NCBI GenBank assembly: GCA_031411135.1
Contig: JANOAN010000004.1
Location: 1-61,350 of the forward strand
Source: a bacterium
GTDB lineage: Bacteria > Patescibacteriota > Minisyncoccia > Phycocordibacterales > CAIZLB01
DNA: 61,350 bases
Direction of reading: 5' to 3'
The position numbers were made by a program, and so were the translations under genes. How positions within the stretch are numbered: position 1 is the first letter of the stretch; the number at the start of each line of letters is the position of its first letter. The notes beneath the pieces are model-generated. The model made no database searches and had not been told where the DNA came from. It worked only from the letters and a program-made list of their open reading frames with translations. Below are positions 8,390-57,450 of the stretch, piece after piece.

Positions 8390-9085
8390 ATGTATCCTCC
8401 TCACAAGAAGACATGGCTTGAAAAGCTTCTTCCTCATTTTCATAAGCATGAAATACGCTTCATTGTGCTTTTTTCTGGTTTTTTCCTAGCCACAATTATT
8501 TTGTTGGCGGGTTTAGGGCTTGTACCCAGCGAGTTCCAATCTGCAACAAATAATTCTGGTTTTCTTGATAAAGTAAAAAACGCAGCAATAAGCCCAATAA
8601 CAGGAGGGGATAGTGATCCAATTATCATTCCTCAGGCAAAATATGAATATCCAAATAGAATTGTTATACCAGCGGTTGGAACTGATGGAGCCGTTAAAAA
8701 CCCCTCATCCATAAATATCGATGTCTTAGATAATGCACTTACAGAAGGTGCGGTTAGATATCCTGGGTCAGGTGTGCCAGGTATTGGAAATATGTTTATT
8801 TTTGGACACAGTACTGGTTTTAAAATTGTACAAAATAATGCTTATAAAATTTTTAATAAAATCAAAAATGTTAAGGAGGGAGATGAGGTTCAGGTTTTTT
8901 CTGATAAAAATGTTTATATTTACAAAGTCACTACTGTGGAAGAAGTTAATAAAGATGAAACACTCGTAGAATTCAATACAAAAGGCCCAGCAATGCTGAC
9001 TTTATCGACCTGTGATAGTTTCGGCTCAAAAACTGATAGATTTGTGGTGAAGGCGGTATTTGATAGAGTACTCGCTCTAAGATAG
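8390..9085 (+). CDS. Sortase-family transpeptidase (231 aa)
   Basis: N-terminal TM anchor, a catalytic His context (MFIFGHS) and the TLSTC active-site motif. A downstream Arg is present (DRFVVKA). Confidence 0.85.
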   Translation: MYPPHKKTWLEKLLPHFHKHEIRFIVLFSGFFLATIILLAGLGLVPSEFQSATNNSGFLDKVKNAAISPITGGDSDPIIIPQAKYEYPNRIVIPAVGTDGAVKNPSSINIDVLDNALTEGAVRYPGSGVPGIGNMFIFGHSTGFKIVQNNAYKIFNKIKNVKEGDEVQVFSDKNVYIYKVTTVEEVNKDETLVEFNTKGPAMLTLSTCDSFGSKTDRFVVKAVFDRVLALR

Positions 9086-9182
9086 GTTAATTAAAATTGG
9101 AGAATTACCCTTATTTTTGAAAGTTTTTTGACACACATTGATAATATTTTGTCAGTATATTTGGAGTATGTCTAGGTAGACA

Positions 9183-9210
9183 TTGACAATATGTATATAT
9201 AGTATATAAT
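9183..9210 (+). promoter_or_regulatory. Promoter TTGACA-16-TATAAT, 8 nt upstream of the ATG (near-leaderless)
   Basis: TTGACA at 9183-9188 and TATAAT at 9205-9210, with the ATG at 9219. No SD in between. A 16-bp near-palindrome ATGTCTAGGTAGACAT (9168-9183) abuts the -35. Confidence 0.55.
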
Positions 9211-9218
9211 GTATATAT

Positions 9219-10604
9219 ATGAATATTAACACAAATTACATGCAAAAAATTAAATATGTTCTAGCTACGGCTTTTTTTGCTCTGGCAATAGCTTTTATAG
9301 CCACTCCAACGGTGACATTTGCTGGTCCTGGTGATGAGACATCAGGCGATGTTGGGTATGAGTACACGTCCGCTGGCTCAGATTGGTATAATGATTATTC
9401 AACATCAGACTACACTTCACCTGGTTCAACTTGGTATAACGACTATTCAACATACTCATCAATTCCTTCTTACTCTTACGGATGTTCAAACTGTGGTGGA
9501 TCAGCTGGATACTCATCAACTCCTTCTTATTCTTACGGATGTTCAAACTGTGGAAGTTCATCGGGTTCATCAATACCCTCATATACAACATCTTCTTCAC
9601 GTTCGACTTCAAATCCAAATAGCGTAAACACTAATACCAACACAACTGGTCCAAGCACCTCAACTGCGACAGGTGGAAGCGCGAGTAGTACTAACACTAA
9701 CAATCTTATTAACAACTCGCCTTCAACAGCGACTGCAACAAATAACTCTACTACAACTGTAAATGTTGTTAATAATATTGTTGTTAATGTTCCACGTGGT
9801 TCAGGTGGCACTACACCAACAACTAATGATTTATCAGTTAATTGTACAATTAACCCTTCAAACAATGTGCAGATTAATCAAGATGTTAACTTCTACGCTA
9901 ATGCATCAGGTGGAAATGGTAGTTACTCTTATTCATGGACAGGTTCAGATGGTCTTAACAGTTCAAGTCAATCTTTCACTGGACGATTCTACAGTTCTGG
10001 TTCAAAGTACGCGACAGTCACTGTTTACTCTGGTGGACAGTCTCGAACTGCGACATGTAACACAAACGTAGGTGGAAATAATAACGGTAACTTAAGTGCT
10101 TACTGTACTGCCACACCTCCAACTGCTAATACTAACCAGTATATTACTTGGACAGTGTACCCAACTGGTGGAAACGGAAACTACAGTTACTCTTGGAGTG
10201 GTTCAGACGGTTTGTACGGAAACAACTCTTCACTTACACAGTCATACAGTTCTACTGGTCAGAAGAATGCTAACGTAACAGTTACATCAAATGGTCAGTC
10301 AATCACTGCAAACTGTTCAGCTAACATCAACTCGATTTTTGGTTACCAAACTCAAGCATCAAACGTTACTCTTATTAAGGGTACATCAGACCAGATTGCT
10401 CCTGCTTCAGGAATTTATTTAGGTCAGCTTCCAGAAACTGGAATTAACCTAAGCTTGAAAGTTGTTCTATTCGCCTTCGGATTACTAGTGTGGAGCATCT
10501 TTGCTGCATTCGTTGTTTCAAAGAGAAAGAAGACAACAGATTCTATTACTGGTAATGCTATCGCTGATTTCAAAACAAGAATGCTTGCGATGAAGAATCA
10601 ATAA
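9219..10604 (+). CDS. LPXTG-anchored repetitive surface protein (461 aa), putative sortase substrate
   Basis: Signal/TM N-terminus and Ser/Thr/Asn-rich repeats. Two PKD-like units (NGSYSYSWTGSDGL, NGNYSYSWSGSDGL). C-terminal LPETG, then a hydrophobic helix, then KRKK. Confidence 0.85.
   Translation: MNINTNYMQKIKYVLATAFFALAIAFIATPTVTFAGPGDETSGDVGYEYTSAGSDWYNDYSTSDYTSPGSTWYNDYSTYSSIPSYSYGCSNCGGSAGYSSTPSYSYGCSNCGSSSGSSIPSYTTSSSRSTSNPNSVNTNTNTTGPSTSTATGGSASSTNTNNLINNSPSTATATNNSTTTVNVVNNIVVNVPRGSGGTTPTTNDLSVNCTINPSNNVQINQDVNFYANASGGNGSYSYSWTGSDGLNSSSQSFTGRFYSSGSKYATVTVYSGGQSRTATCNTNVGGNNNGNLSAYCTATPPTANTNQYITWTVYPTGGNGNYSYSWSGSDGLYGNNSSLTQSYSSTGQKNANVTVTSNGQSITANCSANINSIFGYQTQASNVTLIKGTSDQIAPASGIYLGQLPETGINLSLKVVLFAFGLLVWSIFAAFVVSKRKKTTDSITGNAIADFKTRMLAMKNQ
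9453..9584 (+). repeat. 57-bp tandem repeat (2.3 copies) encoding YSS(I/T)PSYSYGCSNCG(G/S)S(A/S)G
   Basis: Units at 9453-9509 and 9510-9566, with a partial unit at 9567-9584. Each full unit carries a CSNC (CxxC) pair. Confidence 0.8.
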
Positions 10605-19752: not shown

Positions 19753-21543
19753 ATGAAATCGGAAAACAAATCAAAAAAAGATGGGTCTAATCCACTCTTC
19801 TTCCTCTTCAGAGAGGTTTGGCACTACTCGGTTGGAAACAGGAAAAATGTTGTTCTTGTCTGGATGATTTTCATCATCGCAGAAACTTTTAACATCCTTA
19901 TCCAGCCGCAGATCTGGGCCAAAGTTATGGATGTCGTTCAGAGTGAAGGCGTGACGAGTGGAAACATTCGCACGCTACTCGCTCTTCTTCTCTCAACAAT
20001 GGGAGCCACGGCAGTCTTCTGGTTTATCCATGCTCCTGCAAGAGTCATGGAAAACATGAATGCATTCAAAGTCAGGCTGGCGTATCGAAAACATCTCCTT
20101 CGAGGTGTTATGACGCTACCTTTGGAATGGCATGCAGGCCAGCATTCAGGAGAGATTATCGACAAAATTGAGAAGGGCATCCAAGCCTTGTATCAGTTCA
20201 CGAAATACTCTTTTGAAATCATCTATGCAATTGTGAGGTTCTTTGGTAGCTTCATTATGCTGGCTTACTTGTTCCCACCCTCAGCGGCTGTCGTCTTTGT
20301 GATGATGGTCCTAACGTTTTGGGTCGTCACACGCTTCGACAAGATACTGATAAGTCAATATCGTGAGCTGAATCGAAATGAAAATAAGATCTCAGCAAGT
20401 GTTGTCGATTCAATCGGCAACATCGTCACGGTGATCGTTCTTCGCGTCGAAAAATTAATCTTTAACGCGATTATCAGTAAAACAGAAAGACCCTACGAGC
20501 TGTTCAAGAAAAACAGCAGGATGAACGAGGTCAAGTGGTTTATCACTTCAATGTGTTGCTCGGCGACGATTGTTATCGTTCTCGGCACATATTTCCTTCA
20601 GCACATTGGTGCTAGAGGAGGGGTTTTGTTCGGAGAAGTATTCTTGCTTTACAGATATCTCGGTAACATTGGTGACATCCTCAACAGATTCACCAACCTG
20701 TACAGCGACACGGTACAACGCAGGGCAAACGTGGCAAATGCAGAGGAACTTTCCGCGGACTTCCGCGATGAGAGCTTTGCAAACCATGTCCTGCCTGACA
20801 AGTGGCAGAACCTGAGCATCAATGGGCTGACCTTCTCTTACGAAAACGCAGGAGAACCGAGATTGCATCTCGATAACGTCTCATTGCAAATCAAACGCGG
20901 CGAGAAAATTGCTGTCGTCGGAGGAAGTGGCAGTGGTAAAACCACTTTCCTAAAGATCATGCGTTATCTTTACCACCCATCTGAATTAAAACTATCGGTG
21001 GATGGTCAGGAAATTTCACAAGGTTTCGACGGGATTGCCAGAGCCATCACTCTTGTTCCACAAGAGGCTGAAATTTTCGCGACAACCGTTCGCGAAAACA
21101 TCACCCTCGGAGCAGATTATTCCGACGATGTGATAATGCGTTACGTCGAAATGGCAGGACTAACTGAGGTGATCGCAAGGTTACCGAAAGGGTTGGACTC
21201 CATGATGAATGAAAAGGGAGTGAGCCTAAGTGGAGGCGAAAAACAGCGTCTGGCACTGGCCCGCGGGTTTCTCGCTTGTGCCGGCGATGATAAAAGCATA
21301 CTGCTCTTTGATGAGCCCACCAGCAGTCTCGATGTCAAAATTGAGAGGGAAGTCTACCGTAAAATATTCGATGGGTTTAATGGGAAGACCATGATTTCAT
21401 CGATTCACAAACTGCATCTCCTGCCGCTTTTCGACAGGATATGCATGTTTGCAAACGGACAGATCATTGCAAGTGGAACATTTGAGGAATTGTCAGCAAG
21501 TTGTACCGAGTTTCGGGAGCTTTGCAAGCAATATACTCAGTGA
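19753..21543 (+). CDS. ABC exporter, fused permease-ATPase (596 aa); GC-rich cassette B
   Basis: Six-TM N-terminal domain. Walker A GGSGSGKTT, signature LSGGEKQRLALAR and Walker B ILLFDEPTSSLD. No C39 peptidase domain. AAAGGA lies upstream of the ATG. Confidence 0.9.
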   Translation: MKSENKSKKDGSNPLFFLFREVWHYSVGNRKNVVLVWMIFIIAETFNILIQPQIWAKVMDVVQSEGVTSGNIRTLLALLLSTMGATAVFWFIHAPARVMENMNAFKVRLAYRKHLLRGVMTLPLEWHAGQHSGEIIDKIEKGIQALYQFTKYSFEIIYAIVRFFGSFIMLAYLFPPSAAVVFVMMVLTFWVVTRFDKILISQYRELNRNENKISASVVDSIGNIVTVIVLRVEKLIFNAIISKTERPYELFKKNSRMNEVKWFITSMCCSATIVIVLGTYFLQHIGARGGVLFGEVFLLYRYLGNIGDILNRFTNLYSDTVQRRANVANAEELSADFRDESFANHVLPDKWQNLSINGLTFSYENAGEPRLHLDNVSLQIKRGEKIAVVGGSGSGKTTFLKIMRYLYHPSELKLSVDGQEISQGFDGIARAITLVPQEAEIFATTVRENITLGADYSDDVIMRYVEMAGLTEVIARLPKGLDSMMNEKGVSLSGGEKQRLALARGFLACAGDDKSILLFDEPTSSLDVKIEREVYRKIFDGFNGKTMISSIHKLHLLPLFDRICMFANGQIIASGTFEELSASCTEFRELCKQYTQ

Positions 21544-26827: not shown

Positions 26828-27421
26828 ATGGCAATTATTGAACTTGGGAAGGGTCGTATGACCATGCACACCACTCGTGAAAAAAACAAAACATCTGTGA
26901 CTGCTCGAAAGGGCGTCACGATTTACAACAGCGGACAGGTGATAGTCGCTAGTCCTGCTGGTCGGGTTCAGGTCATTCTCGAAAAAGATGGCCTTGAGAT
27001 TGTCGGTAGCACATTCCAGCTCGGTACAAACTCACCTCGGACAACCTCAGGAAAAGCCTTCTCCTGTCTCGTCGAAGAGTATGCGCTCGGTCCGATTCAG
27101 GTCATGAACGCAGCGATGGGAAATGACAAAAATCATCCTGGGGAAATGGTTGCCTCCAGGCTCTACACCGGAGAAATGTCATTTTCACTTGCGCAGGCAA
27201 GTGAAATTCTGATCGACACCCACACCTGGGGTTTGTACGCAGATCCTGATCACACGCTGATCATTCCCGTCCACAACGAGGCTGGTCGCATCGTCTATCT
27301 CGTCGGTAACTACCAACGCCGCCTAGAACGGTGGAAAATGAGGGTCTCGAAACTTCTCGGGCGCGGTCCTGATAAGGGAGCGATGGTCATTCTGAGGAAT
27401 CGGCCGTCGAAGCAAAAGTAA
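26828..27421 (+). CDS. Hypothetical protein (197 aa); GC-rich cassette C
   Basis: Long ORF, 31/60 G+C at 27001-27060, with its own strong terminator. No family recognised. The alternative start MTMHT is preceded by GGGAAGGG. Confidence 0.55.
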   Translation: MAIIELGKGRMTMHTTREKNKTSVTARKGVTIYNSGQVIVASPAGRVQVILEKDGLEIVGSTFQLGTNSPRTTSGKAFSCLVEEYALGPIQVMNAAMGNDKNHPGEMVASRLYTGEMSFSLAQASEILIDTHTWGLYADPDHTLIIPVHNEAGRIVYLVGNYQRRLERWKMRVSKLLGRGPDKGAMVILRNRPSKQK

Positions 27422-28105: not shown

Positions 28106-28438
28106 ATGTTAAAAATACGACTACAACGAATTGGCCGAAAAAACGCACCGTCTTTCCGATTGGTTTTGACTGATTCTCGAAACTCTACAAAAAGCGGTAA
28201 ATCACTAGAAATTTTAGGTTTCCACGACTTCCAGAAAGATGGAACTAAATTAAAGAACGAAAGAATCCTTCACTGGATTTCAAAGGGTGCTCAGGTTTCT
28301 GACACTGCTCACAATCTTTTGGTTTCAAACAAAGTGCTTACAGGAAAGAAGAGAAATGTTCTTCCAAAAAAGACTTATGTAAAGCCTGTTGAAGTTGCAA
28401 AAGAAGAACCAAAAGTTGAAGCTCCAGCCACTGTATAA
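28106..28438 (+). CDS. rpsP: 30S ribosomal protein S16
   Basis: MLKIRLQRIGRKNAPSFRLVLTDSRNSTKSGKSLEILGFHD. Confidence 0.95.
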   Translation: MLKIRLQRIGRKNAPSFRLVLTDSRNSTKSGKSLEILGFHDFQKDGTKLKNERILHWISKGAQVSDTAHNLLVSNKVLTGKKRNVLPKKTYVKPVEVAKEEPKVEAPATV

Positions 28439-28508
28439 GACTGATTGACCGCAATTCTGCCTATCTATATAATTACATTATTACTCGTAATTATTCAGCA
28501 CATTTAAT

Positions 28509-28814
28509 ATGAAAGATCTTGATGTACAGTTTTTAGAATACGTAGTGAAGTCACTAGTCGAAAAACCAGACGAAGTAAAAATTAACCGAACCGTGGATGA
28601 AATGGGAGTATTACTGACACTAACAGTAGATCCGGTAGATATGGGAAAGATTATCGGAAGATCAGGAAACACTGCAAAAGCAATCCGAATCCTTCTCCGA
28701 GTGGTTGGAATGAAAAATAATGCTCGCGTGAATTTAAAAATTAATGAACCAGAAGGTGCTGCGCCGAGAGCACCAAAGAGTGAGGATGATGCAGTAGAGG
28801 ACATGAGTTTATAA
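28509..28814 (+). CDS. KH-domain RNA-binding protein (YlqC/UPF0109 type)
   Basis: LVEKPDEVKI...LTLTVDPVDMGKIIGRSGNTAKAIRILL contains the GxxG KH motif. It occupies the canonical position after rpsP. Confidence 0.85.
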   Translation: MKDLDVQFLEYVVKSLVEKPDEVKINRTVDEMGVLLTLTVDPVDMGKIIGRSGNTAKAIRILLRVVGMKNNARVNLKINEPEGAAPRAPKSEDDAVEDMSL

Positions 28815-28837
28815 AGATGGGGGATGGGAAGAGCATG

Positions 28838-28866
28838 AAAGCCGCTGAAAAGCGGTTTTTTTTGTT
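28838..28866 (+). terminator. Intrinsic terminator after the KH gene
   Basis: AAAGCCGCT, loop GAAA, AGCGGTTTT, then a long T-run. Confidence 0.8.
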
Positions 28867-28871
28867 TGTAA

Positions 28872-29918
28872 CTGAGTTCAACAAGTAAGCACACCACTCT
28901 GTTAACCTAGAGTGATATGAATTACAAGCATTTGAGCATCGAAGAATGCGAAAAGATTCAAACAATGATATGGGAAAAGAAGTCCATTCGGGCCATTGCA
29001 AGAGAGTTGGGACGATCTCACACCACATTGTCTCGTGAGATTAGAAGACACAATCCCGAAGAGATTAAGCGGTACACACCACGTCTAGCACAAATACGTG
29101 CCAAGGAGAGAACTAAATCACGTGGTAGGAAGGATCGTCTAAAGAATGAAACTGTTCGTACATATGTTAAGGAAAAATTGAAAATGAACTGGTCACCTGA
29201 ACAGATATCTGGATGTATTAAATCTGACACAGGATTCACCATCTCTCATGAGGCCATCTACCAATATGTGTACTCACAAGTACATCGAAATGGTTGGGGT
29301 TTGTTGAAGCCAAACCATGAAGATTTACGAATATGTTTACGTAGAAAAAGAAGGAGAAGATAGAAGCAAGGTCTGCGTCGCTCCCAGAGGATATTTAGGT
29401 TACGTGGAACATCGATTGAACAACGACCAAAGGTTGTTGATCAACGTAAACGCATCGGTGACTGGGAGGGTGACACGGTGGAATCGTGTAATCACAAACC
29501 CGGAGTTAACACTCTGCTTGAGAGAAAGACAGGGTTGTTTTTAATTACAAAAGTTAAAAACAAAACCAGTGGTGCAACTACAATTGCAATTGAAAAGAGA
29601 ATGCAAATATTACCTGACAGTGTGAAGAAAACCCTCACTTTGGACAATGGTTTTGAAAACAGTGACTGGCAAGGTATTGAAGAAAAGACAGGACTCAAGA
29701 CCTTCTTCGCTCATCCGTACTCATCACATGAAAGAGGTGCTAATGAGAATGCTAATGGACTCCTCAGAGAATATTTCCCTAAAGGCACAGACTTTACTAC
29801 AATATCTGATGATGAAATACAAAGAGTTGAGTATTTAATCAACACAAGGCCGAGAAAACGCCTTGGCTGGAAGACACCATTACAAGCCATGATTGGTGCA
29901 CTTCAAGGTTGAATTCAG
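28872..29918 (+). mobile_element. IS30-family insertion sequence (~1.05 kb; ends approximate)
   Basis: The transposase ORF fills the element. The candidate imperfect terminal inverted repeats are CTGAGTTCAAC (28872-28882) and GTTGAATTCAG (29908-29918), matching at 10 of 11 positions. Confidence 0.7.
28917..29912 (+). pseudogene. IS30-family DDE transposase, single reading frame interrupted by one in-frame TAG (29361-29363)
   Basis: N-terminal HTH (SIRAIARELGRSHTTLSREIRRHN) and WSPEQISG. Reading past the TAG in the same frame gives KQGLRRSQRIFRLRGTSIEQRPKVVDQRKRIGDWEGDTVES..., then the DDE core (TLDNGFEN...HERGANENANGLLREYFPKGTDF). The track ORFs at 28917 and 29478 are in the same frame. Confidence 0.85.
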
Positions 29919-29929
29919 CGTATAGAACA

Positions 29930-29958
29930 TTGACACTTTACCATATAAATGTTATTAT
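29930..29958 (+). promoter_or_regulatory. Promoter TTGACA-17-TATTAT upstream of the PEP-CTERM gene
   Basis: TTGACA at 29930-29935 and TATTAT at 29953-29958. An AT-rich context abuts a GC-rich ORF. Confidence 0.45.
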
Positions 29959-30074
29959 ATTTAAGGACTATCTATCTCCATACAGGAGGGTGTTTTTTAA
30001 CCACCTGCGCTAATGCGCGACACAGGCAGAAGCTCTAAGAGTTTTTGCTGTAGATAATTCGAAGAACGATTGAC

Positions 30075-31043
30075 ATGAAAAAATACGCACTACTTATGCT
30101 CGCGATTTTCATCGCAGCGGGCGCCATGGCGGACACATCGCTGTGGGTTGGGGTGAATGAATTCACCGGGTCATCAGGAGCCGAGAAATATATCGGGCTA
30201 TACGAAAATGGAGTCCGAACCCAAAAAGTGTTTTCACCGCAAACGGAGGTCGGGACTTACCAAGTTCGTGATCTCATCCAGATTGACGTGGGGCACGTCG
30301 CAGTTTTCAACGGCACGTTCACACCGACTCTCTGGAACTATTCACTGGATCCCCATGAGACATCGTCGCTGACGGGTTTTACGGAATGGTCGAGTACAAA
30401 TGTTACCTACAGGGGCGGTCTCGCCAAAATGGGAAACATGCTCTACCTCTCCGACGAGATGACTTACAACGGCGGGGAGGCTTACGGAATCATTCAGTAC
30501 GACCAGACTGCGGGGACCGCGATTCGCTTTGCGACGGATTTCCAAAGTATGGACCTTGCAGTATCCGGCAACTACATCTACGGTATGGATGGTAACGGAA
30601 AGGTCAACAAGTACGATCCAAGCCTCAATCTGGTTTCCACCGTGACATTGCCGAACGTCGGAAACTACATGGGTCTTGGTGTTGGCGTCGAGGGAGACCT
30701 TTACGTGTCATTCTCTACCTGGCTGAACGGAAACAAGGAAATCCAGAAGTTCTCGCCAGCCGGTACGTTAGTGAAATCGCTGATTGTTCCGAACGTTGGA
30801 GGCATGGGCGACATCGACATAGATACGCTCACTGGTGCCATCGCAGTTGGGACTACAAACTCGGGCATGGTTGTTATCACTGACACCAATCTCGATAGTT
30901 ACTCCTCATTCCGTGCTACTGACAGTGAGTCGGGGGGTAGTACGTTCGTCGCATTTGCCCAAAATGTTCCCGAACCAGGGAGTGCGACACTCATACTTCT
31001 CGCCGGCGGCTTGTTTGCCGGACGAAGAAGACGATCGAGATAG
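30075..31043 (+). CDS. Secreted beta-propeller-like protein with a canonical C-terminal PEP-CTERM sorting signal (322 aa); GC-rich cassette D
   Basis: Signal peptide MKKYALLMLAIFIAAGAMA. C-terminus NVPEPGSATLILLAGGLFAGRRRRSR (PEP, then a hydrophobic helix, then an Arg cluster). 33/60 G+C at 30481-30540. Confidence 0.8.
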   Translation: MKKYALLMLAIFIAAGAMADTSLWVGVNEFTGSSGAEKYIGLYENGVRTQKVFSPQTEVGTYQVRDLIQIDVGHVAVFNGTFTPTLWNYSLDPHETSSLTGFTEWSSTNVTYRGGLAKMGNMLYLSDEMTYNGGEAYGIIQYDQTAGTAIRFATDFQSMDLAVSGNYIYGMDGNGKVNKYDPSLNLVSTVTLPNVGNYMGLGVGVEGDLYVSFSTWLNGNKEIQKFSPAGTLVKSLIVPNVGGMGDIDIDTLTGAIAVGTTNSGMVVITDTNLDSYSSFRATDSESGGSTFVAFAQNVPEPGSATLILLAGGLFAGRRRRSR

Positions 31044-31064
31044 AGAGAATCTCGATTCGAAAAC

Positions 31065-31098
31065 AACGCGCAGGGCCTCCACAGGTTCTGCGCGTTTT
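31065..31098 (+). terminator. Intrinsic terminator of cassette D
   Basis: AACGCGCAG (31065-31073) pairs with CTGCGCGTT (31088-31096), then TTTT. Confidence 0.75.
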
Positions 31099-31146
31099 CA
31101 TATCTACACATGTACAAGGTTAGATAAATATTGTATATTCACACCC

Positions 31147-31869
31147 ATGCCACTCACATTCCACCTCATCTCACTTTTCCCCGACGCCTTTTCTTCCTAC
31201 CTAAATGAATCTATTTTAGAGAGAGCACAAAAAAATAAATTAATTAAATTTAAATTCTACAACCCACGCGATTTTGTTAAACCAACAGCCTCACAAAAAG
31301 GAAAAGAAAAACCATATTTACGCATCGACGACAAACCATACGGCGGTGGTCCCGGCATGGTCATTCAAGCATTGCCAATAATCAAGGCTGTGGATAACTC
31401 TATAAAAACAGCAAAAAAATCAAAAAACTTTAAGAAAGTTTTAATCTTAAACACATCTCCGTCTGGTACCCAATTTACAAACAAACTCGCCTCCACTTAT
31501 ATAAAGGACATATCGGACATTGTTATTATCTGTGGCCGTTATGAAGGAATTGACGCTAGAGTCAAAAAAGTCTTTAAAAACATTAAGGATGTATCTATCG
31601 GTCCATTTGTCCTCACAGGAGGGGAATTGCCAGCTATGGTTATGATAGACGGGATTTCTCGCCATATTAAAGGGGTTCTAGGGAATATTGACTCTATAGA
31701 GGAATCACGCACCGCATCTAGCGATGTTTACACCCGTCCAGCTAGTTTTTCCTATAAGGACAAGGAGTATAAGGTACCTGCTACTTTAACCTCCGGAAAC
31801 CATGCCAAAATCAATCAATTTCGCTCAAAAAAACCAGGGGGTACTGGGGATAAAAACATCAAAGTCTAG
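31147..31869 (+). CDS. trmD: tRNA (guanine37-N1)-methyltransferase (240 aa)
   Basis: MPLTFHLISLFPDAF...DDKPYGGGPGMV...ICGRYEGIDARV...SIGPFVLTGGELPAMV. The track ORF start at 30835 overlaps the PEP-CTERM gene and is rejected. TATATT (31134-31139) lies 7 nt before the ATG. Confidence 0.92.
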   Translation: MPLTFHLISLFPDAFSSYLNESILERAQKNKLIKFKFYNPRDFVKPTASQKGKEKPYLRIDDKPYGGGPGMVIQALPIIKAVDNSIKTAKKSKNFKKVLILNTSPSGTQFTNKLASTYIKDISDIVIICGRYEGIDARVKKVFKNIKDVSIGPFVLTGGELPAMVMIDGISRHIKGVLGNIDSIEESRTASSDVYTRPASFSYKDKEYKVPATLTSGNHAKINQFRSKKPGGTGDKNIKV

Positions 31870-32150
31870 TACCCAAGTCAATCAGAGTTTTCCACAATTG
31901 ACGCCTCCTCAAATGTAGGCTACTATATGACTCTGCGTAGGACGATTGAGTAATGGACGACTCTTCGCGGGAAACTCTCACTTTTTAAAAATTCTTTTGA
32001 ATCGGTTAACCTTATTAAAATAAATTAGAAGAATATAAGCGTGTTCGCTTACGCTCCATATTTTTGTCGTTTGTTTTAATAATGATTTCAAAATAAATTC
32101 TAGAAAAGTGAGTGTGATTATTAAACTGGGATAACCACACGCATTATTTT

Positions 32151-43200: not shown

Positions 43201-43692
43201 CTACTTCTCGTGAGCCCTGTTGTATTCAATCGGGTTTTCCAGCCACCGGTAGAATTCTGGGAAGTTGGTTCCAGAAGGTCCAGGTCCTCCTTTTGCCCAA
43301 GCCTCGGCGATTTTCAGATCGGCAGTTGTCGCCAGAGTGATTGCAGGACCACTGCCTTCACTCCAGAAGAAGCAATAGCGGCCGGGCTGCAGATCTTTCG
43401 AGAAGGTCTTGATGAGGTCGATATCACTTTTCCGATCGAAGGTCGTGCGGTGACTCTTGAACTCATACGATTGACCCGGCAGGTCAACTGTCTTTGCAGT
43501 GAAGCCATTGTGGTCCACTTTCTCGATCTGATAGACACGGCCGAGGTGGGGTTCCTTGTTGGATCTCCAAGCGATCATGCAAAACATGATGGCACCAAAT
43601 ACCAATGTTGCGAGCATGAGGATGTGTGGTGGCTGGAGCTTTCCATGATTACGGCCCATGGAGGGGCTTGGTTTGTGTGGTGTGGTTTTCAT
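43201..43692 (-). CDS. Hypothetical single-pass membrane protein (163 aa from ATG 43692; TTG at 43722 in the track); GC-rich cassette F
   Basis: TM helix ILMLATLVFGAIMFCMIAW. No family recognised. Minus-strand promoter TTGACA (43773-43778), 17-nt spacer, TATATT. Confidence 0.55.
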   Translation of the reverse strand: MKTTPHKPSPSMGRNHGKLQPPHILMLATLVFGAIMFCMIAWRSNKEPHLGRVYQIEKVDHNGFTAKTVDLPGQSYEFKSHRTTFDRKSDIDLIKTFSKDLQPGRYCFFWSEGSGPAITLATTADLKIAEAWAKGGPGPSGTNFPEFYRWLENPIEYNRAHEK

Positions 43693-43784
43693 AGAAAAAC
43701 CTTTGATGTAAAGACTTTTCAATGAAAACCACGAGAACTTCTAAAAAGTAATATAATACAAATATGTGTAAATGTCAATGAATA

Positions 43785-43819
43785 ACAAAAGGCCGGAACG
43801 CTTTTCGCGTTCCGGCCTT
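43785..43819 (-). terminator. Intrinsic terminator (minus strand) of the JAB-like gene
   Basis: GGCCGGAACGC (43791-43801) pairs with GCGTTCCGGCC (43807-43817). The T-run is on the minus strand. Confidence 0.8.
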
Positions 43820-43820
43820 G

Positions 43821-44651
43821 TCACAAGTAGAAGTGTTTTTGCTGTCCCCTCATGGTCAGGATGGCAAGCTCGTCGGCCAGTCTTTCGGTGATTTCCTCGT
43901 GGCGTTTTCCGACTTTATGGAAAGCCTGCCAATGCTTCTTTTTGGCTTCCTTGAATGTCCGCAGCTCTTGTCCTTCCAGCTTCTCCGTCAACATGATGTC
44001 CACTTTGCCGATCACGCTTTTTTGCGGAACCAGCTTATATGCATCGAGGTGCCAGAGAGGTTTTCCTTCCCGGAGGTTATTAGTGATCAGAAGGTGAGTG
44101 TTACCAGGTGTGAACTGGATGTCTGCCGGTGAGAGTTGTCTTGCAAACGTTTCATTGACGACCATATCCATCGAAGGTTTTCTGCCATCGACGCTTAGAT
44201 AATCAAAGACACCACTTGCTAGTTCTTCCTCCAGGATTTCAAGGTAAGCCTCTGCTTCTCCTGGCCACATGTCGAGCATCTGGTCTTCACCTGTGTTTGG
44301 ATGCGAGTGGTAGAGGACGGTGTGCACACCGTCATGGGACTCTGCAAAGGCTCGAGTCACTTCGTCCTCGAATACCCACCAGGCTCCTCTGATGTCAGGT
44401 TCGAGAGCCACCTCGCGAACCTGAGGTTCCCAGAGAGGATAGAGTTTCCCTGAACATAGGGGATTGATCGAGACGACATAGAATACGCCGTCACGATACA
44501 CGCCAGTCAGGAATCCTGAATTTTCAACTGGGGCAAACGAATCTGCTTTAAAGTTCTTTACGAACAACCTCGGAATCGCGAACTTGACGACACCGGGTTG
44601 GTTGAGCGCGAGCTCTTGCCAAACGGGCGTCGTGGTTGCGTCGATTTTCAT
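43821..44651 (-). CDS. JAB/MPN-like (JAMM) domain protein with an uncharacterised C-terminal half (276 aa); GC-rich cassette F
   Basis: PVENSGFLTGV (the E-x-x-G-x-L-x-G context of the JAMM Glu) and VLYHSHPNTGEDQMLD (HxH plus a downstream Asp). The canonical Ser is not evident. 33/60 G+C at 44341-44400. Confidence 0.4.
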   Translation of the reverse strand: MKIDATTTPVWQELALNQPGVVKFAIPRLFVKNFKADSFAPVENSGFLTGVYRDGVFYVVSINPLCSGKLYPLWEPQVREVALEPDIRGAWWVFEDEVTRAFAESHDGVHTVLYHSHPNTGEDQMLDMWPGEAEAYLEILEEELASGVFDYLSVDGRKPSMDMVVNETFARQLSPADIQFTPGNTHLLITNNLREGKPLWHLDAYKLVPQKSVIGKVDIMLTEKLEGQELRTFKEAKKKHWQAFHKVGKRHEEITERLADELAILTMRGQQKHFYL

Positions 44652-44744
44652 TTATTGGGTTGGTTTTGGTTTGTGACAAGTTGCTTGTCTGAAAACATAG
44701 TACAATATTTATATAAAAAGTCAAATTTACTAAATATATATAAA

Positions 44745-44805
44745 AAGAAAAAACCGCCCCAACCAAGAGAAACCACGGGGCGGTTTTCCTGATAGAAGCG
44801 GGGTG
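44745..44805 (-). repeat. Terminator module, copy 2
   Basis: AGAAAAAACCGCCCCAACCAAGAGAAACCACGGGGCGGTTTTCCTGATAGAAGCGG, directly downstream of the stop at 44815. Confidence 0.75.
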
Positions 44806-44814
44806 TGATGTAGA

Positions 44815-45228
44815 TCAGCCGAAGAGTTCAGCGAGGATCGAGGCTGTCATTGGGCTGAGACGATCAGGGGTGATTTGATATCTCACACCATCGGACTCGA
44901 ATGAGACACGTCCCTGCTCAGAGATCGAGACAGGTGTGGAACTCATCATGACTTCGATTATCTGTTCTCCGTCAGGACTCATCTGGTCTCCTAAAGTCTC
45001 GTCTCCCACAATCCTGAAAGCGCATTGCGGCACTTGCAGGGTCAGTTTGTCCCCCGAGTAGTCGAAGTTCTTAATCTTTCCTATGCGGGTGACACGTTGA
45101 CTACCCTCTACTTTGGTGAAGGTGATGTGAACTTTTGCAATGATCAGCCATTCGATCGTGTAAGGCCAGTCAGTTTTCCTGACGGGGTCGGTTGCTGCGG
45201 TTGGTGTTTCTTCTGTGTGTGAGGACAT
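44815..45228 (-). CDS. Hypothetical protein (137 aa from ATG 45228; the track start at 45276 lies inside a 19-bp hairpin); GC-rich cassette F
   Basis: ORF MSSHTEETPTAATDP...ILAELFG. No family recognised. The start codon is uncertain. Confidence 0.5.
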   Translation of the reverse strand: MSSHTEETPTAATDPVRKTDWPYTIEWLIIAKVHITFTKVEGSQRVTRIGKIKNFDYSGDKLTLQVPQCAFRIVGDETLGDQMSPDGEQIIEVMMSSTPVSISEQGRVSFESDGVRYQITPDRLSPMTASILAELFG

Positions 45229-45268
45229 TGTGTGTATGGTAAATGTTTGTAGTGACACGCCAGTAATT

Positions 45269-45311
45269 GGACGCATCTTTTAAGGCACAGAATGCCTTAA
45301 AAGATGCGTCC
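45269..45311. repeat. Perfect 19-bp inverted repeat with a 5-nt loop between divergent genes
   Basis: GGACGCATCTTTTAAGGCA (45269-45287), loop CAGAA, TGCCTTAAAAGATGCGTCC (45293-45311). No T-run on either strand. Confidence 0.8.
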
Positions 45312-53470: not shown

Positions 53471-54436
53471 ATGCAAAACCTTTTATTGTCACTATCCTCT
53501 GACGCTGTCACTTCAATCGACCAACTTCTTCGCCGTGCTTGTATAGATGGAGCAAGTGATATCCATATGGATGTCCAGGATGAAAGAGGGTATATAAAAC
53601 TTCGTATAAATGGCAAGCTTTTTTACTATGCTGTCTGCGATCATTTTTTGTACTTAGGGATACTTGGAATTATAAAGTCACGAGCACACCTCAGAATTGA
53701 TATTCACGACAGAGGTCAAGACGGCTCTTTTGTGTTTTATCCGTATAAAAAAAGAAAGGTTTTCATTCGGGTCTCGATAAATCCGACTGTTCACGGTGAG
53801 GCGGTGGTGATGCGAATACTTGATCAATCAAAACTTGATATAAAAAGCCTTGATGATTTGGGAATGTCCAATGAATTAGTATCAAGAATAAGAGAATACA
53901 CCGATTTGGAAAATTCAATGATATTGATTTCAGGATCAACCGGATCTGGAAAAACCACTACTATGTATTCAATAATGTCAGAGCTTAATCCAGAATCAAT
54001 AGTCATTATTTCCTTAGAAGATCCCGTAGAAAGACACATTCCAAATATTAGGCAGGTTTCCATTAAGGCTGATTTTGGCTTTGGGTATGCGGATGCATTG
54101 CGCGTAGCCTTACGACAAGACCCAGATGTAATTGTTATAGGTGAAATTCGCGACAAGGAAACGGCTCAAATTGCTATAGAGGCAGCCTTAACAGGACATC
54201 TAATTATTGCAGGTATACATGGAAGGGACTCGGTCGATGTGGTTCTAAGATTAAAAAATTTAGGTGTTGATGAGTTTCTTATTTCGCAAACTTTGTCTTT
54301 GTCTATTCATCAAAAAATGATTTATGGAAATTCAAATACGAGGGTAAGTTTCTCTTACCTAGACTTTTTCAAAAATGGTAACGAAGATTTTCTAGAATTA
54401 AAAAAGCAAATGAAAAATGGCAATGTCAAAGAATAA
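53471..54436 (+). CDS. Type II/IV secretion-family assembly ATPase (PilB/GspE-like, short 321-aa form)
   Basis: Walker A SGSTGSGKTTT, Asp box, Walker B VIVIGEIRD and His box GHLIIAGIHG. No N-terminal GspE-N domain. Confidence 0.85.
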   Translation: MQNLLLSLSSDAVTSIDQLLRRACIDGASDIHMDVQDERGYIKLRINGKLFYYAVCDHFLYLGILGIIKSRAHLRIDIHDRGQDGSFVFYPYKKRKVFIRVSINPTVHGEAVVMRILDQSKLDIKSLDDLGMSNELVSRIREYTDLENSMILISGSTGSGKTTTMYSIMSELNPESIVIISLEDPVERHIPNIRQVSIKADFGFGYADALRVALRQDPDVIVIGEIRDKETAQIAIEAALTGHLIIAGIHGRDSVDVVLRLKNLGVDEFLISQTLSLSIHQKMIYGNSNTRVSFSYLDFFKNGNEDFLELKKQMKNGNVKE

Positions 54437-55454
54437 TGAAATTATCTATATTTTAGAAAACTTATGTTTCCTTTTGGATTCGGGGCTTTCAATTGTTGGG
54501 TGCTTAGATGTTATGTCTAAAAGAAATAAAAGTTTGCGAATTATAAAAATAAAACAAAGCATACAACAAGGTAGGTCGTTTAGGGATGCTATTCTTATTG
54601 CTTTTGATTCAAAAATTCCACATGTTATGGATATTTTTATTCAAATAGGGGAATCTTGTGGAAACTTGGGACAAATGATTCTAAAAGCTCTTGAAACAGA
54701 AAGGCAGATTAAAAAAATTAATAGCTCATTCTTCGGGGCTCTATCCTACCCATTATTCATCTGTGTCATTGCACTAATTATGATGCTTTTGACTATGATA
54801 GGAATTGTACCGAAACTTCTCCCAATGTTTCGTGATCTGCATGTTGAATTACCGTTTTATACGAGATTTTTTATGACTACTTCAAACATGATTATTAATT
54901 ACGGGATTTATATACTTACGTGTATTTGTTTTTTAGTAAGTTTATTTGGCTATTTTTATAAAAAGTCACAAGAGTTTCGAATAAAATTTGAAAATTTAAT
55001 ATTAAAAATATGGGGAATTAAGTCTCTATATATTAAATACCAAGTGTCGATTGTTGCGCTTTGCACTGCAGAGTATCTTCGTGCAGGATATGCGCTTCAC
55101 AATGCTTTAAAAATGGTGGGGGACTCAACCAGATCCTTTGCGTATAAACATGCTTGTTTTTCCATATCAGGCAATTTGCAGAAGGGTGATGAATTGTCAG
55201 AAGTAATAAAGATTTACGAAAATTTGTTCCCAGAATGGTCTCATGTTTTGGATTTTGCTGTTCAAACTGGTCGTTTGGCCGATCAGTTTGAAAGGTTTTA
55301 TCTAGAGAATGTTTTGCAATTAGAAAAAACCAACGTACATATTAAAAAATGGTCTGAACCAATCCTGATGTTGTTTATAGGTGGAATCATTGCCATTTTT
55401 GCTGTATCCATTATTAGCCCAATTTATAGTGTAGTTCAAAATGTACGAATATAA
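54417..55454 (+). CDS. PilC/GspF-family inner-membrane platform protein (345 aa)
   Basis: Two T2SS-F-like repeats and three TM segments. It overlaps the ATPase gene by 20 nt. Confidence 0.8.
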   Translation: MAMSKNNEIIYILENLCFLLDSGLSIVGCLDVMSKRNKSLRIIKIKQSIQQGRSFRDAILIAFDSKIPHVMDIFIQIGESCGNLGQMILKALETERQIKKINSSFFGALSYPLFICVIALIMMLLTMIGIVPKLLPMFRDLHVELPFYTRFFMTTSNMIINYGIYILTCICFLVSLFGYFYKKSQEFRIKFENLILKIWGIKSLYIKYQVSIVALCTAEYLRAGYALHNALKMVGDSTRSFAYKHACFSISGNLQKGDELSEVIKIYENLFPEWSHVLDFAVQTGRLADQFERFYLENVLQLEKTNVHIKKWSEPILMLFIGGIIAIFAVSIISPIYSVVQNVRI

Positions 55455-55812
55455 AAAAGGATTTACTTTGGTTGAAGTATTGTTGGTTATTGTTTTAATT
55501 ATTGCAATTTTTTCTATGGCAACTTCGATGCTAACTTCATTTTCAAGGCCTAATCAGAAATATGTCGAAAAGGACTTTGATGACATAAGAAGCATTTTAG
55601 GGCAGGTGAAATATCTAAAGTTTTTAGGAGAAGGCAATGTCAGCATTGATTGCAGTAATGGAAAAATAAAATTGCTTGTTGATAATCAGATTTTCGATGA
55701 AAAACAATTAAAAACTCTTACTTGTGAAAGTGATATGAGGTTTTCAAGTGCCTCGTCAACTTTTGAAGTAAAAATTAATCAATACGGATATGTGCTATTC
55801 CAAAGGATTTAG
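55441..55812 (+). CDS. Type IV pilin-like protein (123 aa)
   Basis: Class III signal MYEYKKG|FTLVEVLLVIVLIIAIF. Confidence 0.8.
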   Translation: MYEYKKGFTLVEVLLVIVLIIAIFSMATSMLTSFSRPNQKYVEKDFDDIRSILGQVKYLKFLGEGNVSIDCSNGKIKLLVDNQIFDEKQLKTLTCESDMRFSSASSTFEVKINQYGYVLFQRI

Positions 55813-56998: not shown

Positions 56999-57429
56999 TA
57001 AGAAAAAAGGGCTTTACGCTAATTGAAGTCTTGATTTCATTAAGTATATTTGCTTATGTTTTTTCAGCCTTAATAATCTTATTTTTTCAGTTTTCTAAAG
57101 GCACTACCAAGACAGAAAAGTGCTCTTCATTTTCCTTAATTCTAATTCAAAAGATCCTTACTGAATCTGATAATGTGATTGTGTCATTAGATGGAAGCGA
57201 AGTTATTTTGGATGATCAGACATTGTATAATGAACTCGAGACTTTACATCTTTTTAAAAACACAAAAATAGTAGATTTTCAAAAAAATAAAAGCGAATAT
57301 CAAATAGATTCTTGCAACGTTTTGTTTAGTAAAAACACAACCTCTACAAGTCCCTTACTAAATGTTCAAAAATGTATAAATATTAAGTACAAGCAAGGTA
57401 AGGCTAGTACTGTATGTGCTTTAAAATGA
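56995..57429 (+). CDS. Type IV pilin-like protein (144 aa)
   Basis: Class III signal MIRKKG|FTLIEVLISLSIFAYVF. ATGA overlap with the previous gene. Confidence 0.8.
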   Translation: MIRKKGFTLIEVLISLSIFAYVFSALIILFFQFSKGTTKTEKCSSFSLILIQKILTESDNVIVSLDGSEVILDDQTLYNELETLHLFKNTKIVDFQKNKSEYQIDSCNVLFSKNTTSTSPLLNVQKCINIKYKQGKASTVCALK

Positions 57430-57450
57430 ATATGCTAAAATATTATTGAA

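What the first reader, a model, noticed from the sequence alone, without database searches (positions are those of the whole stretch)
30075..31043. Canonical PEP-CTERM sorting signal in an organism that otherwise anchors proteins by sortase or PG-binding
The protein has a cleavable signal peptide and beta-propeller-like repeats. It ends in VPEPGSATLILLAGGLFAGRRRRSR, the textbook PEP, TM helix and Arg-cluster tripartite signal recognised by exosortases. Exosortase/PEP-CTERM systems are established for outer-membrane-bearing, EPS-producing bacteria. No exosortase is in this window, and the native envelope signals here are Gram-positive-like. The gene is GC-rich, has its own terminator and lies next to an IS30. 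Yet it is driven by a host-type TTGACA-17-TATTAT promoter.
Basis: partly seen in the sequence, partly recalled or inferred. Interest (0 to 1): 0.65.

Follow-up and report, generated by a model that had tools for sequence, protein, structure and literature searches.

The report
Foreign PEP-CTERM propeller gene in a Patescibacterium
A tiny bacterium thought to have no outer membrane (Patescibacteria) has recently picked up, from an outer-membrane-bearing neighbour, one surface-protein gene whose C-terminal sorting tag has no visible partner enzyme here, so the tag probably just pins the protein in the cell membrane.

Summary
ORF 30075-31043 (322 aa) has a Sec-type signal peptide, a six-bladed beta-propeller and a C-terminal tail, VPEPGSATLILLAGGLFAGRRRRSR, that passes the curated cut-offs of TIGR02595 and PF07589.

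The host contig is Patescibacteria (Paceibacteria-like). It carries a sortase next to an LPETG substrate and several PG_binding_1 proteins. No exosortase is present in the 61 kb.

The gene is foreign:
- Its GC3 is 0.59, against a mean of 0.34 for the other genes.
- It interrupts the rpsP-KH-trmD-rpoB order conserved in about 55 related genomes, none of which has it.
- Its homologues, up to about 40% identical, are in diderm phyla, closest in Verrucomicrobiota and Planctomycetota. The nearest is from the same study.
- About two thirds of short family members end in PEP-CTERM.

An independent assembly covers IS30-gene-trmD at the same depth, so a chimera is unlikely. The adjacent IS30 is a native Patescibacteria element, inactivated by one TAG codon, and is not the vehicle from the donor.

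Best reading: a recent single-gene transfer placed behind a strong sigma-70-type promoter match in host-like AT-rich spacer. The orphan PEP-CTERM tail probably acts as a plain membrane anchor. Whether an exosortase exists elsewhere in the genome could not be tested.

This is a moderately interesting new member of a known kind.

The parts
28106..28814 (+). Native upstream genes rpsP (S16, 28106-28438) and the KhpA-type KH-domain gene (28509-28814). They form the left flank of the conserved operon that the insert interrupts.
   Evidence: Pfam KH_KhpA-B hit. S16, KH and TrmD are syntenic in about 55 of 80 related Patescibacteria loci.
28832..28872 (+). Intrinsic terminator of the KH gene
   Evidence: Terminator scan. 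Fold of -15.1 kcal/mol, z = -3.8.
28892..29917 (+). IS30-family insertion sequence of about 1026 bp, native to Patescibacteria. The transposase ORF is 28917-29912, interrupted by a single in-frame TAG at 29361-29363.
   Evidence: HTH_38 hit. The ORF is one frame with one stop. The ends are inferred from unitig break points at 28892 and 29917. Another metagenome reads C at 29361, giving CAG and an intact ORF. The closest transposases, 45-67% identical, are almost all in Patescibacteria MAGs, and several sit on stand-alone 1051-bp contigs.
29930..29958 (+). Sigma-70-type promoter match TTGACA-17-TATTAT (TG-extended -10) in AT-rich, host-like spacer, 117 nt upstream of the ATG
   Evidence: It is one of six matches of 11/12 or better in the whole window, and five of the six are intergenic.
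29998..31100 (+). Approximate extent of the imported GC-rich cassette: a 5' leader of about 75 nt, the coding sequence and the terminator. The boundaries come from the GC step only.
   Evidence: 100-nt GC profile: 0.31 at 29900, 0.57 at 30100, 0.56 at 31000 and 0.28 at 31200.
30075..31043 (+). Coding sequence of the 322-aa secreted beta-propeller protein with a PEP-CTERM tail
30075..30131 (+). Signal peptide MKKYALLMLAIFIAAGAMA, with predicted signal peptidase I cleavage after A-M-A
   Evidence: Sequence inspection. The hydrophobic core has a mean Kyte-Doolittle hydropathy (KD) of 2.59. The region aligns with the N-terminal hydrophobic regions of homologues.
30132..30965 (+). Six-bladed beta-propeller domain
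   Evidence: AlphaFold2 model with 24 strands and pTM 0.79. Foldseek matches to Kelch, NHL and YWTD propellers. The profile search finds 6983 relatives.
30966..31040 (+). PEP-CTERM domain VPEPGSATLILLAGGLFAGRRRRSR
   Evidence: TIGR02595 scores 18.7 against a cut-off of 16. PF07589 scores 24.1 against a cut-off of 20.7. The tail statistics are typical of the family.
31058..31106 (+). Intrinsic terminator of the imported gene: a 13-bp GC-rich stem followed by UUUUCAUAU
   Evidence: -23.9 kcal/mol, z = -6.1, and 0 of 200 shuffles fold as well. Inverted repeat I15.
31111..31869 (+). Native trmD (31147-31869) with its own weaker promoter-like site, TGTACA-17-TATATT, at 31111-31139. This is the right flank of the interrupted operon.
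   Evidence: tRNA_m1G_MT hit. Promoter scan. Relatives also carry a promoter-like spacer directly before trmD.
8390..10604 (+). Context: the native Gram-positive-type sorting system. Sortase is at 8390-9085. The adjacent PKD-like protein (9219-10604) carries LPETG at residue 404, then a 23-residue TM segment and KRKK.
   Evidence: Pfam Sortase hit at 3.4e-21. NCBIfam sortase_fam hit above its cut-off. LPETG found by pattern search.

Best explanation
A single gene cassette (leader, coding sequence and terminator, about 1.1 kb) was recently transferred from an outer-membrane-bearing bacterium into a Patescibacteria (Paceibacteria-like) chromosome. The donor was most likely a member or relative of the Planctomycetota-Verrucomicrobiota group living in the same freshwater sediment.

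The cassette landed in the spacer between the KH-domain gene and trmD. It now sits downstream of a strong sigma-70-type promoter match in host-like AT-rich DNA and beside a resident, now inactivated IS30.

It encodes an ordinary member of a large family of secreted six-bladed beta-propeller proteins that normally end in a PEP-CTERM exosortase signal.

In the new host, the inferred route is as follows:
- The protein is exported by Sec and its signal peptide is removed.
- No partner exosortase or outer membrane is evident, so the PEP-CTERM helix and its RRRRSR cluster are not processed.
- The helix and Arg cluster act instead as a stop-transfer anchor. The propeller is left tethered to the outer face of the cytoplasmic membrane, possibly as an adhesin towards the polysaccharide-rich surface of the host or neighbour lineage.

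Shown: the protein's identity, its foreign origin, the insertion site, the integrity of the gene and the support for the junctions. Inferred: expression, lack of processing, membrane anchoring and any adhesive role.
For: Sorting signal and fold:
- The tail passes the curated cut-offs and is typical of the family.
- The fold is a six-bladed propeller.

Family:
- The profile search finds 6983 relatives at E <= 1e-3 and 696 at E <= 1e-30.
- 49 of the 76 retrieved members of 360 aa or less end in PEP-CTERM.
- Among 185,579 species-representative genomes, relatives lie in Chthoniobacteraceae (40%), Phycisphaeraceae (37%), Pirellulaceae (35%), Cyanobacteria, other Planctomycetota, Gemmatimonadota, Myxococcota, Hydrogenedentota, Entotheonella and Pseudomonadota. 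None is in Patescibacteria.
- The closest homologue is carried by a Chthoniobacteraceae MAG and by runs whose accessions adjoin that of the window's run.

Foreign origin:
- GC3 is 0.594 against a mean of 0.343.
- In 33 other loci the family gene matches its flanks in GC, with differences of -0.07 to +0.06 except for one locus at -0.14. In the window the difference is +0.13.

Host identity and insertion site:
- RpoB is 55-78% identical to Patescibacteria MAGs.
- S16-KH-TrmD-RpoB synteny holds in about 55 relatives, with no homologue of the gene between KH and TrmD.
- A custom PEP-CTERM tail HMM hits only the window's ORF in 1.04 Mb from 80 relatives.

Assembly support:
- A Logan contig of 3045 bp spans 28917-31961 with 0 differences at depth 16.2. 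The flanking contigs are at 16.2-19.6.
- A second sample holds an identical 173-nt contig across 29953-30125.

Envelope:
- The window carries a sortase with an LPETG substrate and PG_binding_1 proteins, and no exosortase.
- Patescibacteria are proposed to lack an outer membrane (PMC12102498).
- PEP-CTERM was defined as restricted to bacteria with an outer membrane and EPS genes, and as usually occurring in many copies per genome (PMC1569441).

Expression signals: promoter and terminator.
Against: - There is no expression evidence: no RNA run holds the gene.
- No Shine-Dalgarno-like motif is evident within 15 nt of the ATG (sequence).
- Only about 6-9% of a typical Patescibacteria genome is visible, so an exosortase elsewhere is not excluded.
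- The hydrophobic stretch is short (15 residues, KD 1.65, against 23 residues and KD 2.16 for the native LPETG substrate's helix). Stable anchoring is therefore plausible but not assured.
- The closest homologue is only about 40% identical and the window's protein sits on a long branch. The donor is therefore unsampled, and its assignment to the PVC group is approximate.
- Several other ORFs in the window are also GC3-rich, so composition alone is not unique to this gene.
Confidence: 0.6

Rival explanations
1. Neutral, dead-on-arrival passenger. The gene was transferred recently, as described, but it is not expressed or has no function in the Patescibacterium. It persists only because too little time has passed for decay.
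For: The composition is unameliorated, which implies a very recent arrival. No RNA evidence exists. No clear ribosome-binding site is seen. The neighbouring IS30 already carries a nonsense codon, so the region is tolerant of decay. No other Patescibacteria relative carries the gene.
Against: The ORF is full length, with an intact signal peptide, all family-invariant propeller positions and a canonical tail. It lies behind one of only six near-consensus promoter matches in the window and has a strong terminator. No variants or frameshifts appear in the sample.
Confidence: 0.25
2. Ordinary member of a complete exosortase system. The genome encodes an exosortase and further PEP-CTERM proteins on contigs outside this window, and the tail is processed normally.
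For: Only 61 kb is visible. In described genomes, PEP-CTERM proteins co-occur with EpsH/exosortase (PMC1569441).
Against: No exosortase and no second PEP-CTERM tail appear in the window. No PEP-CTERM tail appears in 1.04 Mb from 80 related Patescibacteria. No family member is found in any Patescibacteria species representative. The full-text searches run (PEP-CTERM + Patescibacteria; exosortase + candidate phyla radiation; exosortase + CPR group names) returned no paper describing either in this group. The gene is a lone foreign cassette. Patescibacteria are proposed to lack an outer membrane (PMC12102498).
Confidence: 0.1
3. Assembly or binning artefact. A fragment from a diderm organism was joined to a Patescibacteria contig.
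For: The composition changes abruptly. A repeat (the IS30) lies next to the gene, and repeats are a classic place for misjoins.
Against: An independent k=31 assembly of the run gives one contig, with 0 differences, from inside the IS30 through the gene into trmD. Its depth is 16.2, equal to the flanks at 16.2-19.6. A second sample has an identical contig across the AT-rich/GC-rich junction at 29953-30125. Patescibacteria genes lie on both sides within the same operon. No close copy of the gene exists on any other contig in the protein or metagenome collections.
Confidence: 0.03

Closest known systems
PEP-CTERM / exosortase (EpsH, XrtA) protein-sorting system (Haft et al. 2006, PMC1569441)
   Same: The architecture is the same: signal peptide, variable passenger domain and a tripartite tail of PEP, a hydrophobic helix and an Arg cluster. 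The tail passes the TIGR02595 and PF07589 cut-offs. The passenger domain belongs to a large family whose short members mostly end in PEP-CTERM.
   Different: The host is a Patescibacterium, a group proposed to lack an outer membrane. A single copy is seen rather than the usual several (median 8 per genome). No exosortase or EPS locus is seen nearby. The gene is a lone, compositionally foreign cassette.
Unnamed six-bladed beta-propeller + PEP-CTERM family of Verrucomicrobiota and Planctomycetota (e.g. the 339-aa protein of Chthoniobacteraceae MAG VAR_34_metabat_159, contig JANNXQ010000066.1)
   Same: Identity is about 40% over the full length. The VSVNEFTGSS and FRATDSxSGGSTFV motifs are shared, as are the length and the PEP-CTERM ending. 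The homologue occurs in runs whose accessions adjoin that of the window's run.
   Different: In those genomes the gene's GC matches its flanks, and it lies among EPS-type genes (Wzy_C, ExoD). Here it is an island inside a ribosomal-protein/trmD operon and sits on a long branch.
LPXTG / sortase anchoring of Gram-positive bacteria, present natively in this window
   Same: The logic is analogous: a C-terminal motif, a TM helix and a basic cluster. The window's own LPETG protein has this layout.
   Different: The motif and the enzyme differ. The imported protein has no LPXTG-like motif, so the resident sortase is not expected to process it.
Horizontal acquisitions by Patescibacteria from neighbouring or host bacteria (e.g. 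the T4SS of monoderm origin, PMC12102498)
   Same: A cell-surface or interaction-related function has been gained by transfer into a reduced episymbiont-type genome.
   Different: The donor here is a diderm. The imported protein carries a sorting signal whose machinery is not expected in the recipient.

Membership tests
PEP-CTERM domain protein (TIGR02595 / PF07589) | C-terminal PEP motif, then a hydrophobic helix, then a basic cluster, scoring above the curated HMM cut-offs | tested here: met
   TIGR02595 scores 18.7 against 16. PF07589 scores 24.1 against 20.7. The tail length and charge are typical.
PEP-CTERM domain protein (TIGR02595 / PF07589) | N-terminal signal peptide | tested here: met
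   MKKYALLMLAIFIAAGAMA|D, judged by inspection, with a hydrophobic core of KD 2.59. No dedicated predictor was available.
PEP-CTERM/exosortase sorting system (the genome-level system) | A cognate exosortase (EpsH/Xrt family) in the same genome | not testable with these tools
   None was found among the ORFs of the 61-kb window. The rest of the genome is not available.
PEP-CTERM/exosortase sorting system (the genome-level system) | Several PEP-CTERM proteins per genome (median 8; PMC1569441) | tested here: inconclusive
   Only one PEP-CTERM tail is in the window, and none in 1.04 Mb from 80 related genomes. The rest of this genome is unseen.
PEP-CTERM/exosortase sorting system (the genome-level system) | Host with an outer membrane and EPS biosynthesis genes | tested here: not met
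   The host is Patescibacteria, which are proposed to lack an outer membrane (PMC12102498). The window shows a sortase/LPETG pair and PG_binding_1 proteins, and no outer-membrane or EPS genes.
Six-bladed beta-propeller + PEP-CTERM protein family (unnamed) | Full-length homology to the propeller module | tested here: met
   E = 6e-46 to the nearest member. The family profile finds 6983 relatives, and the window's protein scores 340 bits. The protein was itself in the seed alignment, so the bit score is not independent. The invariant columns are conserved.
IS30 family insertion sequence (neighbouring element) | Transposase of about 330 aa with an N-terminal HTH and a DDE catalytic domain, on an element of 1.0-1.25 kb | tested here: met
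   HTH_38 hit. The frame is 332 codons with the DWEGD, LDNG and ERGANEN motifs and one in-frame TAG. The transposase is 33-67% identical to transposase-like ORFs in many genomes. The terminal inverted repeats were not resolved cleanly.

The most novel reading that the evidence does not exclude
The Patescibacterium has taken a surface propeller from its own host or prey lineage, a PEP-CTERM-rich, EPS-producing Verrucomicrobiota- or Planctomycetota-like bacterium in the same sediment. It displays the propeller, anchored by the unprocessed PEP-CTERM helix, as an adhesin that recognises the host's exopolysaccharide matrix. The exosortase signal would thus be re-used as an exosortase-independent membrane anchor in a monoderm-type cell. 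A less likely variant is that some Patescibacteria carry a so-far unreported exosortase-like enzyme.
Probability: 0.12. Interest if true: 0.7.

Novelty: new member of a known kind. Interest (0 to 1): 0.4.

Why it matters
PEP-CTERM was defined as a signal confined to bacteria that have an outer membrane, EPS genes and an exosortase. An intact, promoter-equipped copy in a Patescibacterium is a natural test of what such a signal does without its machinery. It could act as a plain anchor, as a degradation signal, or do nothing.

The finding also gives a concrete and datable example of diderm-to-Patescibacteria gene flow involving a surface protein. It may point to the physical partner of an uncultured episymbiont, because the closest homologue comes from a Chthoniobacteraceae MAG in the same study.

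If an exosortase turns up elsewhere in the bin, the finding becomes routine.

Tried and rejected
Searches for the same sequence elsewhere:
- An exact-match search for the tail-coding DNA in species-representative genomes found nothing, so the source genome is not in that collection.
- The first word-indexed protein search suggested a tiny family of 7 hits. The exhaustive profile search showed this was a sensitivity artefact: 6983 hits.
- A scan of JGI metagenome contigs for close copies found none.
- The first family alignment was too divergent to seed a locus search.

IS30 as vehicle: rejected.
- Its transposase relatives are almost all in Patescibacteria.
- Its GC is host-like.
- IS-like words in other metagenomes stop at about 29917, before the gene.
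- Clean terminal inverted repeats or target-site duplications for the IS, and direct repeats flanking the GC-rich cassette, were not found.

Other rejected or empty leads:
- The weak hairpin at 29975-29997 between promoter and gene is not better than shuffles (z = -0.6), so it is not treated as a terminator.
- No Rfam family lies in the region.
- There are no PHROG (phage) hits for the gene or for the other GC-rich ORFs.
- No RNA-seq run holds the gene.
- The literature searches run (PEP-CTERM + Patescibacteria; exosortase + candidate phyla radiation; exosortase + CPR group names) gave no relevant paper.
- The low-GC family loci L195 and L196 were checked as possible further Patescibacteria cases. 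Their genes match their flanks in GC and the contexts are not Patescibacteria-like.
Full report
**1. What is at the coordinates**

ORF 30075..31043 (+) encodes 322 residues.
- The last 25 residues, VPEPGSATLILLAGGLFAGRRRRSR, score above the curated cut-offs of both PEP-CTERM models. TIGR02595 gives 18.7 bits against a cut-off of 16, and PF07589 gives 24.1 against 20.7.
- I compared the tail with 49 PEP-CTERM tails of homologues. It has 15 hydrophobic residues between PEP and the first Arg (median 16), a mean Kyte-Doolittle hydropathy (KD) of 1.65 (median 1.78) and five basic residues (median 4). It is typical of the family.
- The N-terminus, MKKYALLMLAIFIAAGAMA|DT, has the layout of a Sec signal peptide. 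This is by inspection only.
- An AlphaFold2 model built on seven homologues (pLDDT 77.5, pTM 0.79) is all-beta with 24 strands. Its best structural matches are six-bladed Kelch, NHL, YWTD and designed propellers (Foldseek E down to 5e-10, TM 0.6-0.69).

**2. The host and its envelope**

- RpoB of the window is 55-78% identical to RpoB of Patescibacteria MAGs labelled Paceibacteria, Parcubacteria, Nomurabacteria and similar.
- The window encodes a sortase at 8390-9085.
- Directly downstream is a 461-aa PKD-like protein with LPETG at residue 404, a 23-residue hydrophobic helix and KRKK.
- Three secreted proteins carry PG_binding_1 domains.
- The window also encodes a DsbB, a VanY-type carboxypeptidase and a type IV pilus-like cluster.
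- Pfam scans of the window's ORFs of 100 aa or more that look like real genes found no exosortase or EpsH protein and no outer-membrane or EPS genes.
- A pattern scan of all six frames found no second PEP-CTERM-like tail.
- Patescibacteria are proposed to lack an outer membrane (PMC12102498).
- The paper that defined PEP-CTERM states that the domain occurs only in bacteria with an outer membrane and EPS genes. It also reports that the domain co-occurs with EpsH and is usually present many times per genome, with a median of 8 (PMC1569441).

**3. The gene is foreign to this genome**

- Composition: its GC is 0.519 and its GC3 0.594. The other 44 ORFs average GC3 0.343 (sd 0.085), so the gene has the highest value in the window, z = 2.9. 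The GC step places the imported block at roughly 29998-31100.
- Synteny: in about 55 of 80 related Patescibacteria loci the order S16-KH-TrmD-RpoB is conserved. The KH-TrmD spacer there usually runs from a few bases to a few hundred. None of these loci has a homologue of the gene, or an IS30, in that spacer. In the window the spacer is 2.3 kb.
- Tail HMM: a PEP-CTERM tail HMM built from the family hits only the window's ORF among 6059 ORFs from 1.04 Mb of those relatives.
- Other family loci: in 33 loci from other organisms that carry a family member, the gene's GC matches its flanks, with differences of -0.07 to +0.06 and one outlier at -0.14. In the window the difference is +0.13.

**4. Where it came from**

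- The word-indexed search found only seven relatives. An exhaustive profile search then found 6983 at E <= 1e-3 and 696 at E <= 1e-30. These include many proteins of 310-350 aa and giant multi-domain proteins.
- Of the 76 retrieved members of 360 aa or less, 49 end in a PEP-CTERM tail. Others carry a Cys-containing C-terminal module of about 75 residues instead.
- The window's protein shares the motifs VSVNEFTGSS and FRATDSxSGGSTFV with one subfamily.
- In species-representative genomes, relatives are found in Chthoniobacteraceae (40%), Phycisphaeraceae (37%), Pirellulaceae (35%) and a cyanobacterium (33%). Further relatives are in other Planctomycetota, Gemmatimonadota, Myxococcota, Armatimonadota, Hydrogenedentota, Entotheonella, Nitrospiraceae and Pseudomonadota. 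None is in Patescibacteria.
- The best hit, P0002, belongs to a Chthoniobacteraceae MAG. It also occurs in two runs whose accessions adjoin that of the window's run, which I take to be the same study.
- In a neighbour-joining tree the window's protein is on a long branch, sister to this subfamily dominated by Planctomycetota and Verrucomicrobiota (PVC). The donor itself is therefore unsampled.

**5. Is the contig real?**

- The exact protein is also encoded on a 3045-bp contig from an independent assembly of run SRR20217193. That contig carries the IS30, the gene and trmD.
- Laid on the window, the contig covers 28917-31961 with no differences at depth 16.2. The neighbouring contigs have depths of 16.2, 19.6 and 17.1.
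- A second sample of the same study holds an identical 173-nt contig across 29953-30125, which is the junction between AT-rich spacer and GC-rich cassette.
- Raw read pairs could not be examined, because only contigs are held for these runs.

A chimera is unlikely.

**6. The neighbouring IS30**

- The transposase frame 28917-29912 is a single 332-codon frame with one in-frame TAG at 29361-29363.
- A contig from an unrelated freshwater metagenome is identical over 151 nt except for a C at 29361, which gives CAG (Gln). The window's copy is therefore a recently inactivated member of an IS that circulates elsewhere.
- Unitig break points suggest element ends at about 28892 and 29917. IS-like words in other metagenomes never extend into the gene.
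- Its closest transposases (45-67% identity) are almost all in Patescibacteria MAGs, several on stand-alone 1051-bp contigs. Its GC is host-like.

The IS is native. It is a neighbour of the imported DNA, not part of it.

**7. Expression signals**

- TTGACA-17-TATTAT, with TG before the -10 hexamer, lies at 29930-29958 in 31%-GC spacer.
- Across both strands of the whole window only six sites match the consensus at 11/12 or better. Five are intergenic, and four lie 36-284 nt upstream of + strand genes. Such sites therefore behave as real promoters in this genome.
- The gene ends in a 13-bp GC-rich hairpin followed by UUUU (-23.9 kcal/mol, z = -6.1).
- trmD keeps a weaker promoter-like site directly upstream, as trmD does in relatives.
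- I see no clear Shine-Dalgarno motif before the ATG.
- No RNA-seq run holds the gene. Expression is not shown.

**8. How it most likely works**

Shown: the gene is an intact, canonical family member, recently transferred from a diderm. It is inserted in a conserved operon of a Patescibacterium, behind a strong sigma-70-type promoter match in host-like spacer.

Inferred:
- Sec export and signal-peptide cleavage follow from the N-terminal sequence.
- No exosortase is visible, so the PEP motif is probably not cleaved.
- The 15-residue hydrophobic stretch followed by RRRRSR obeys the positive-inside rule. It would then hold the C-terminus in the cytoplasmic membrane and leave the propeller on the cell surface.
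- A role in adhesion to a polysaccharide-rich partner is speculation. It rests on the family's association with EPS-producing diderms. The Chthoniobacteraceae homologue lies among Wzy_C and ExoD genes.

**9. Rivals**

- A silent, decaying passenger is the main rival. There is no expression evidence and the arrival is very recent.
- A complete exosortase system elsewhere in the genome cannot be excluded from 61 kb. Nothing seen in relatives or in the literature searches supports it.
- An assembly artefact is unlikely.

**10. Verdict**

There are two caveats:
- The IS30 is native and is not the vehicle.
- The whole-genome absence of an exosortase is untested.

The protein is a new member of a known kind, found in an unexpected host. 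Interest is moderate.

Noticed in passing
window 29361-29363: The IS30 transposase is interrupted by a single in-frame TAG. A near-identical copy in an unrelated freshwater metagenome reads CAG at the same codon. The window's copy is therefore a freshly inactivated member of an IS that circulates among Patescibacteria in several freshwater and drinking-water samples.
   Followed up: partly
window 43201-45276, 26828-27421, 19753-21543, 1545-2171: Several other ORFs are also GC3-rich (0.49-0.57, against a mean of 0.34). The three or four ORFs at 43.2-45.3 kb and the 197-aa ORF at 26828 have no Pfam, NCBIfam or PHROG hit. A near-consensus promoter match at 43778 (- strand) points at the ORF 43201-43722. 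These may be further foreign islands.
   Followed up: partly
window 8390-10604: A sortase gene is followed by a PKD-like protein with LPETG, a 23-residue helix and KRKK. This protein then continues for an unusually long 27 residues after the basic cluster.
   Followed up: partly
L025, L044, L062, L043, L055, L070 (KH-trmD spacers): In several related Patescibacteria the KH-trmD spacer is 0.9-1.7 kb and holds unrelated ORFs of 150-320 aa. Examples are a 259-aa SPFH-like membrane protein in L062 and a 276-aa ORF in L044. The spacer looks like a recurrent insertion site.
   Followed up: no
P0003, P0005, P0006, P0007; L195 3727-4824: One branch of the propeller family replaces PEP-CTERM with a conserved C-terminal module of about 75 residues that contains two Cys (...VCNxGTxxCS...N). 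It is found in a Rhodocyclaceae MAG and in low-GC contigs. This may be an alternative attachment or secretion module.
   Followed up: no
L184, L185, L186, L188 (Hydrogenedentota and Nitrospiraceae MAGs): Family members in these MAGs end in P[LM]SPVAAVLLAVALVAVSL..RR..QHSQDH rather than PEP. This may be a variant C-terminal sorting signal on the same propeller. The near-identical tails in a Nitrospiraceae MAG and in Hydrogenedentota MAGs also suggest transfer or misbinning.
   Followed up: no
L092 (contig CAMDRK010000183.1, labelled Nitrospira lenta MAG): A Patescibacteria-type IS30 transposase, 60% identical to the window's, sits on a 5.7-kb contig binned as Nitrospira lenta. This is either misbinning or IS transfer between lineages.
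   Followed up: no
window 28892-28946: In the source run a 55-nt unitig at the left end of the IS30 has twice the depth of its neighbours (33 against 16-20). This suggests a second copy or variant of the IS start in the same sample.
   Followed up: no
window 53471-59088: A type IV pilus-like cluster is present: a T2SSE ATPase, a T2SSF platform protein, several proteins with N-terminal methylation motifs, and a 545-aa protein without family hits. Such clusters are typical of Patescibacteria.
   Followed up: no
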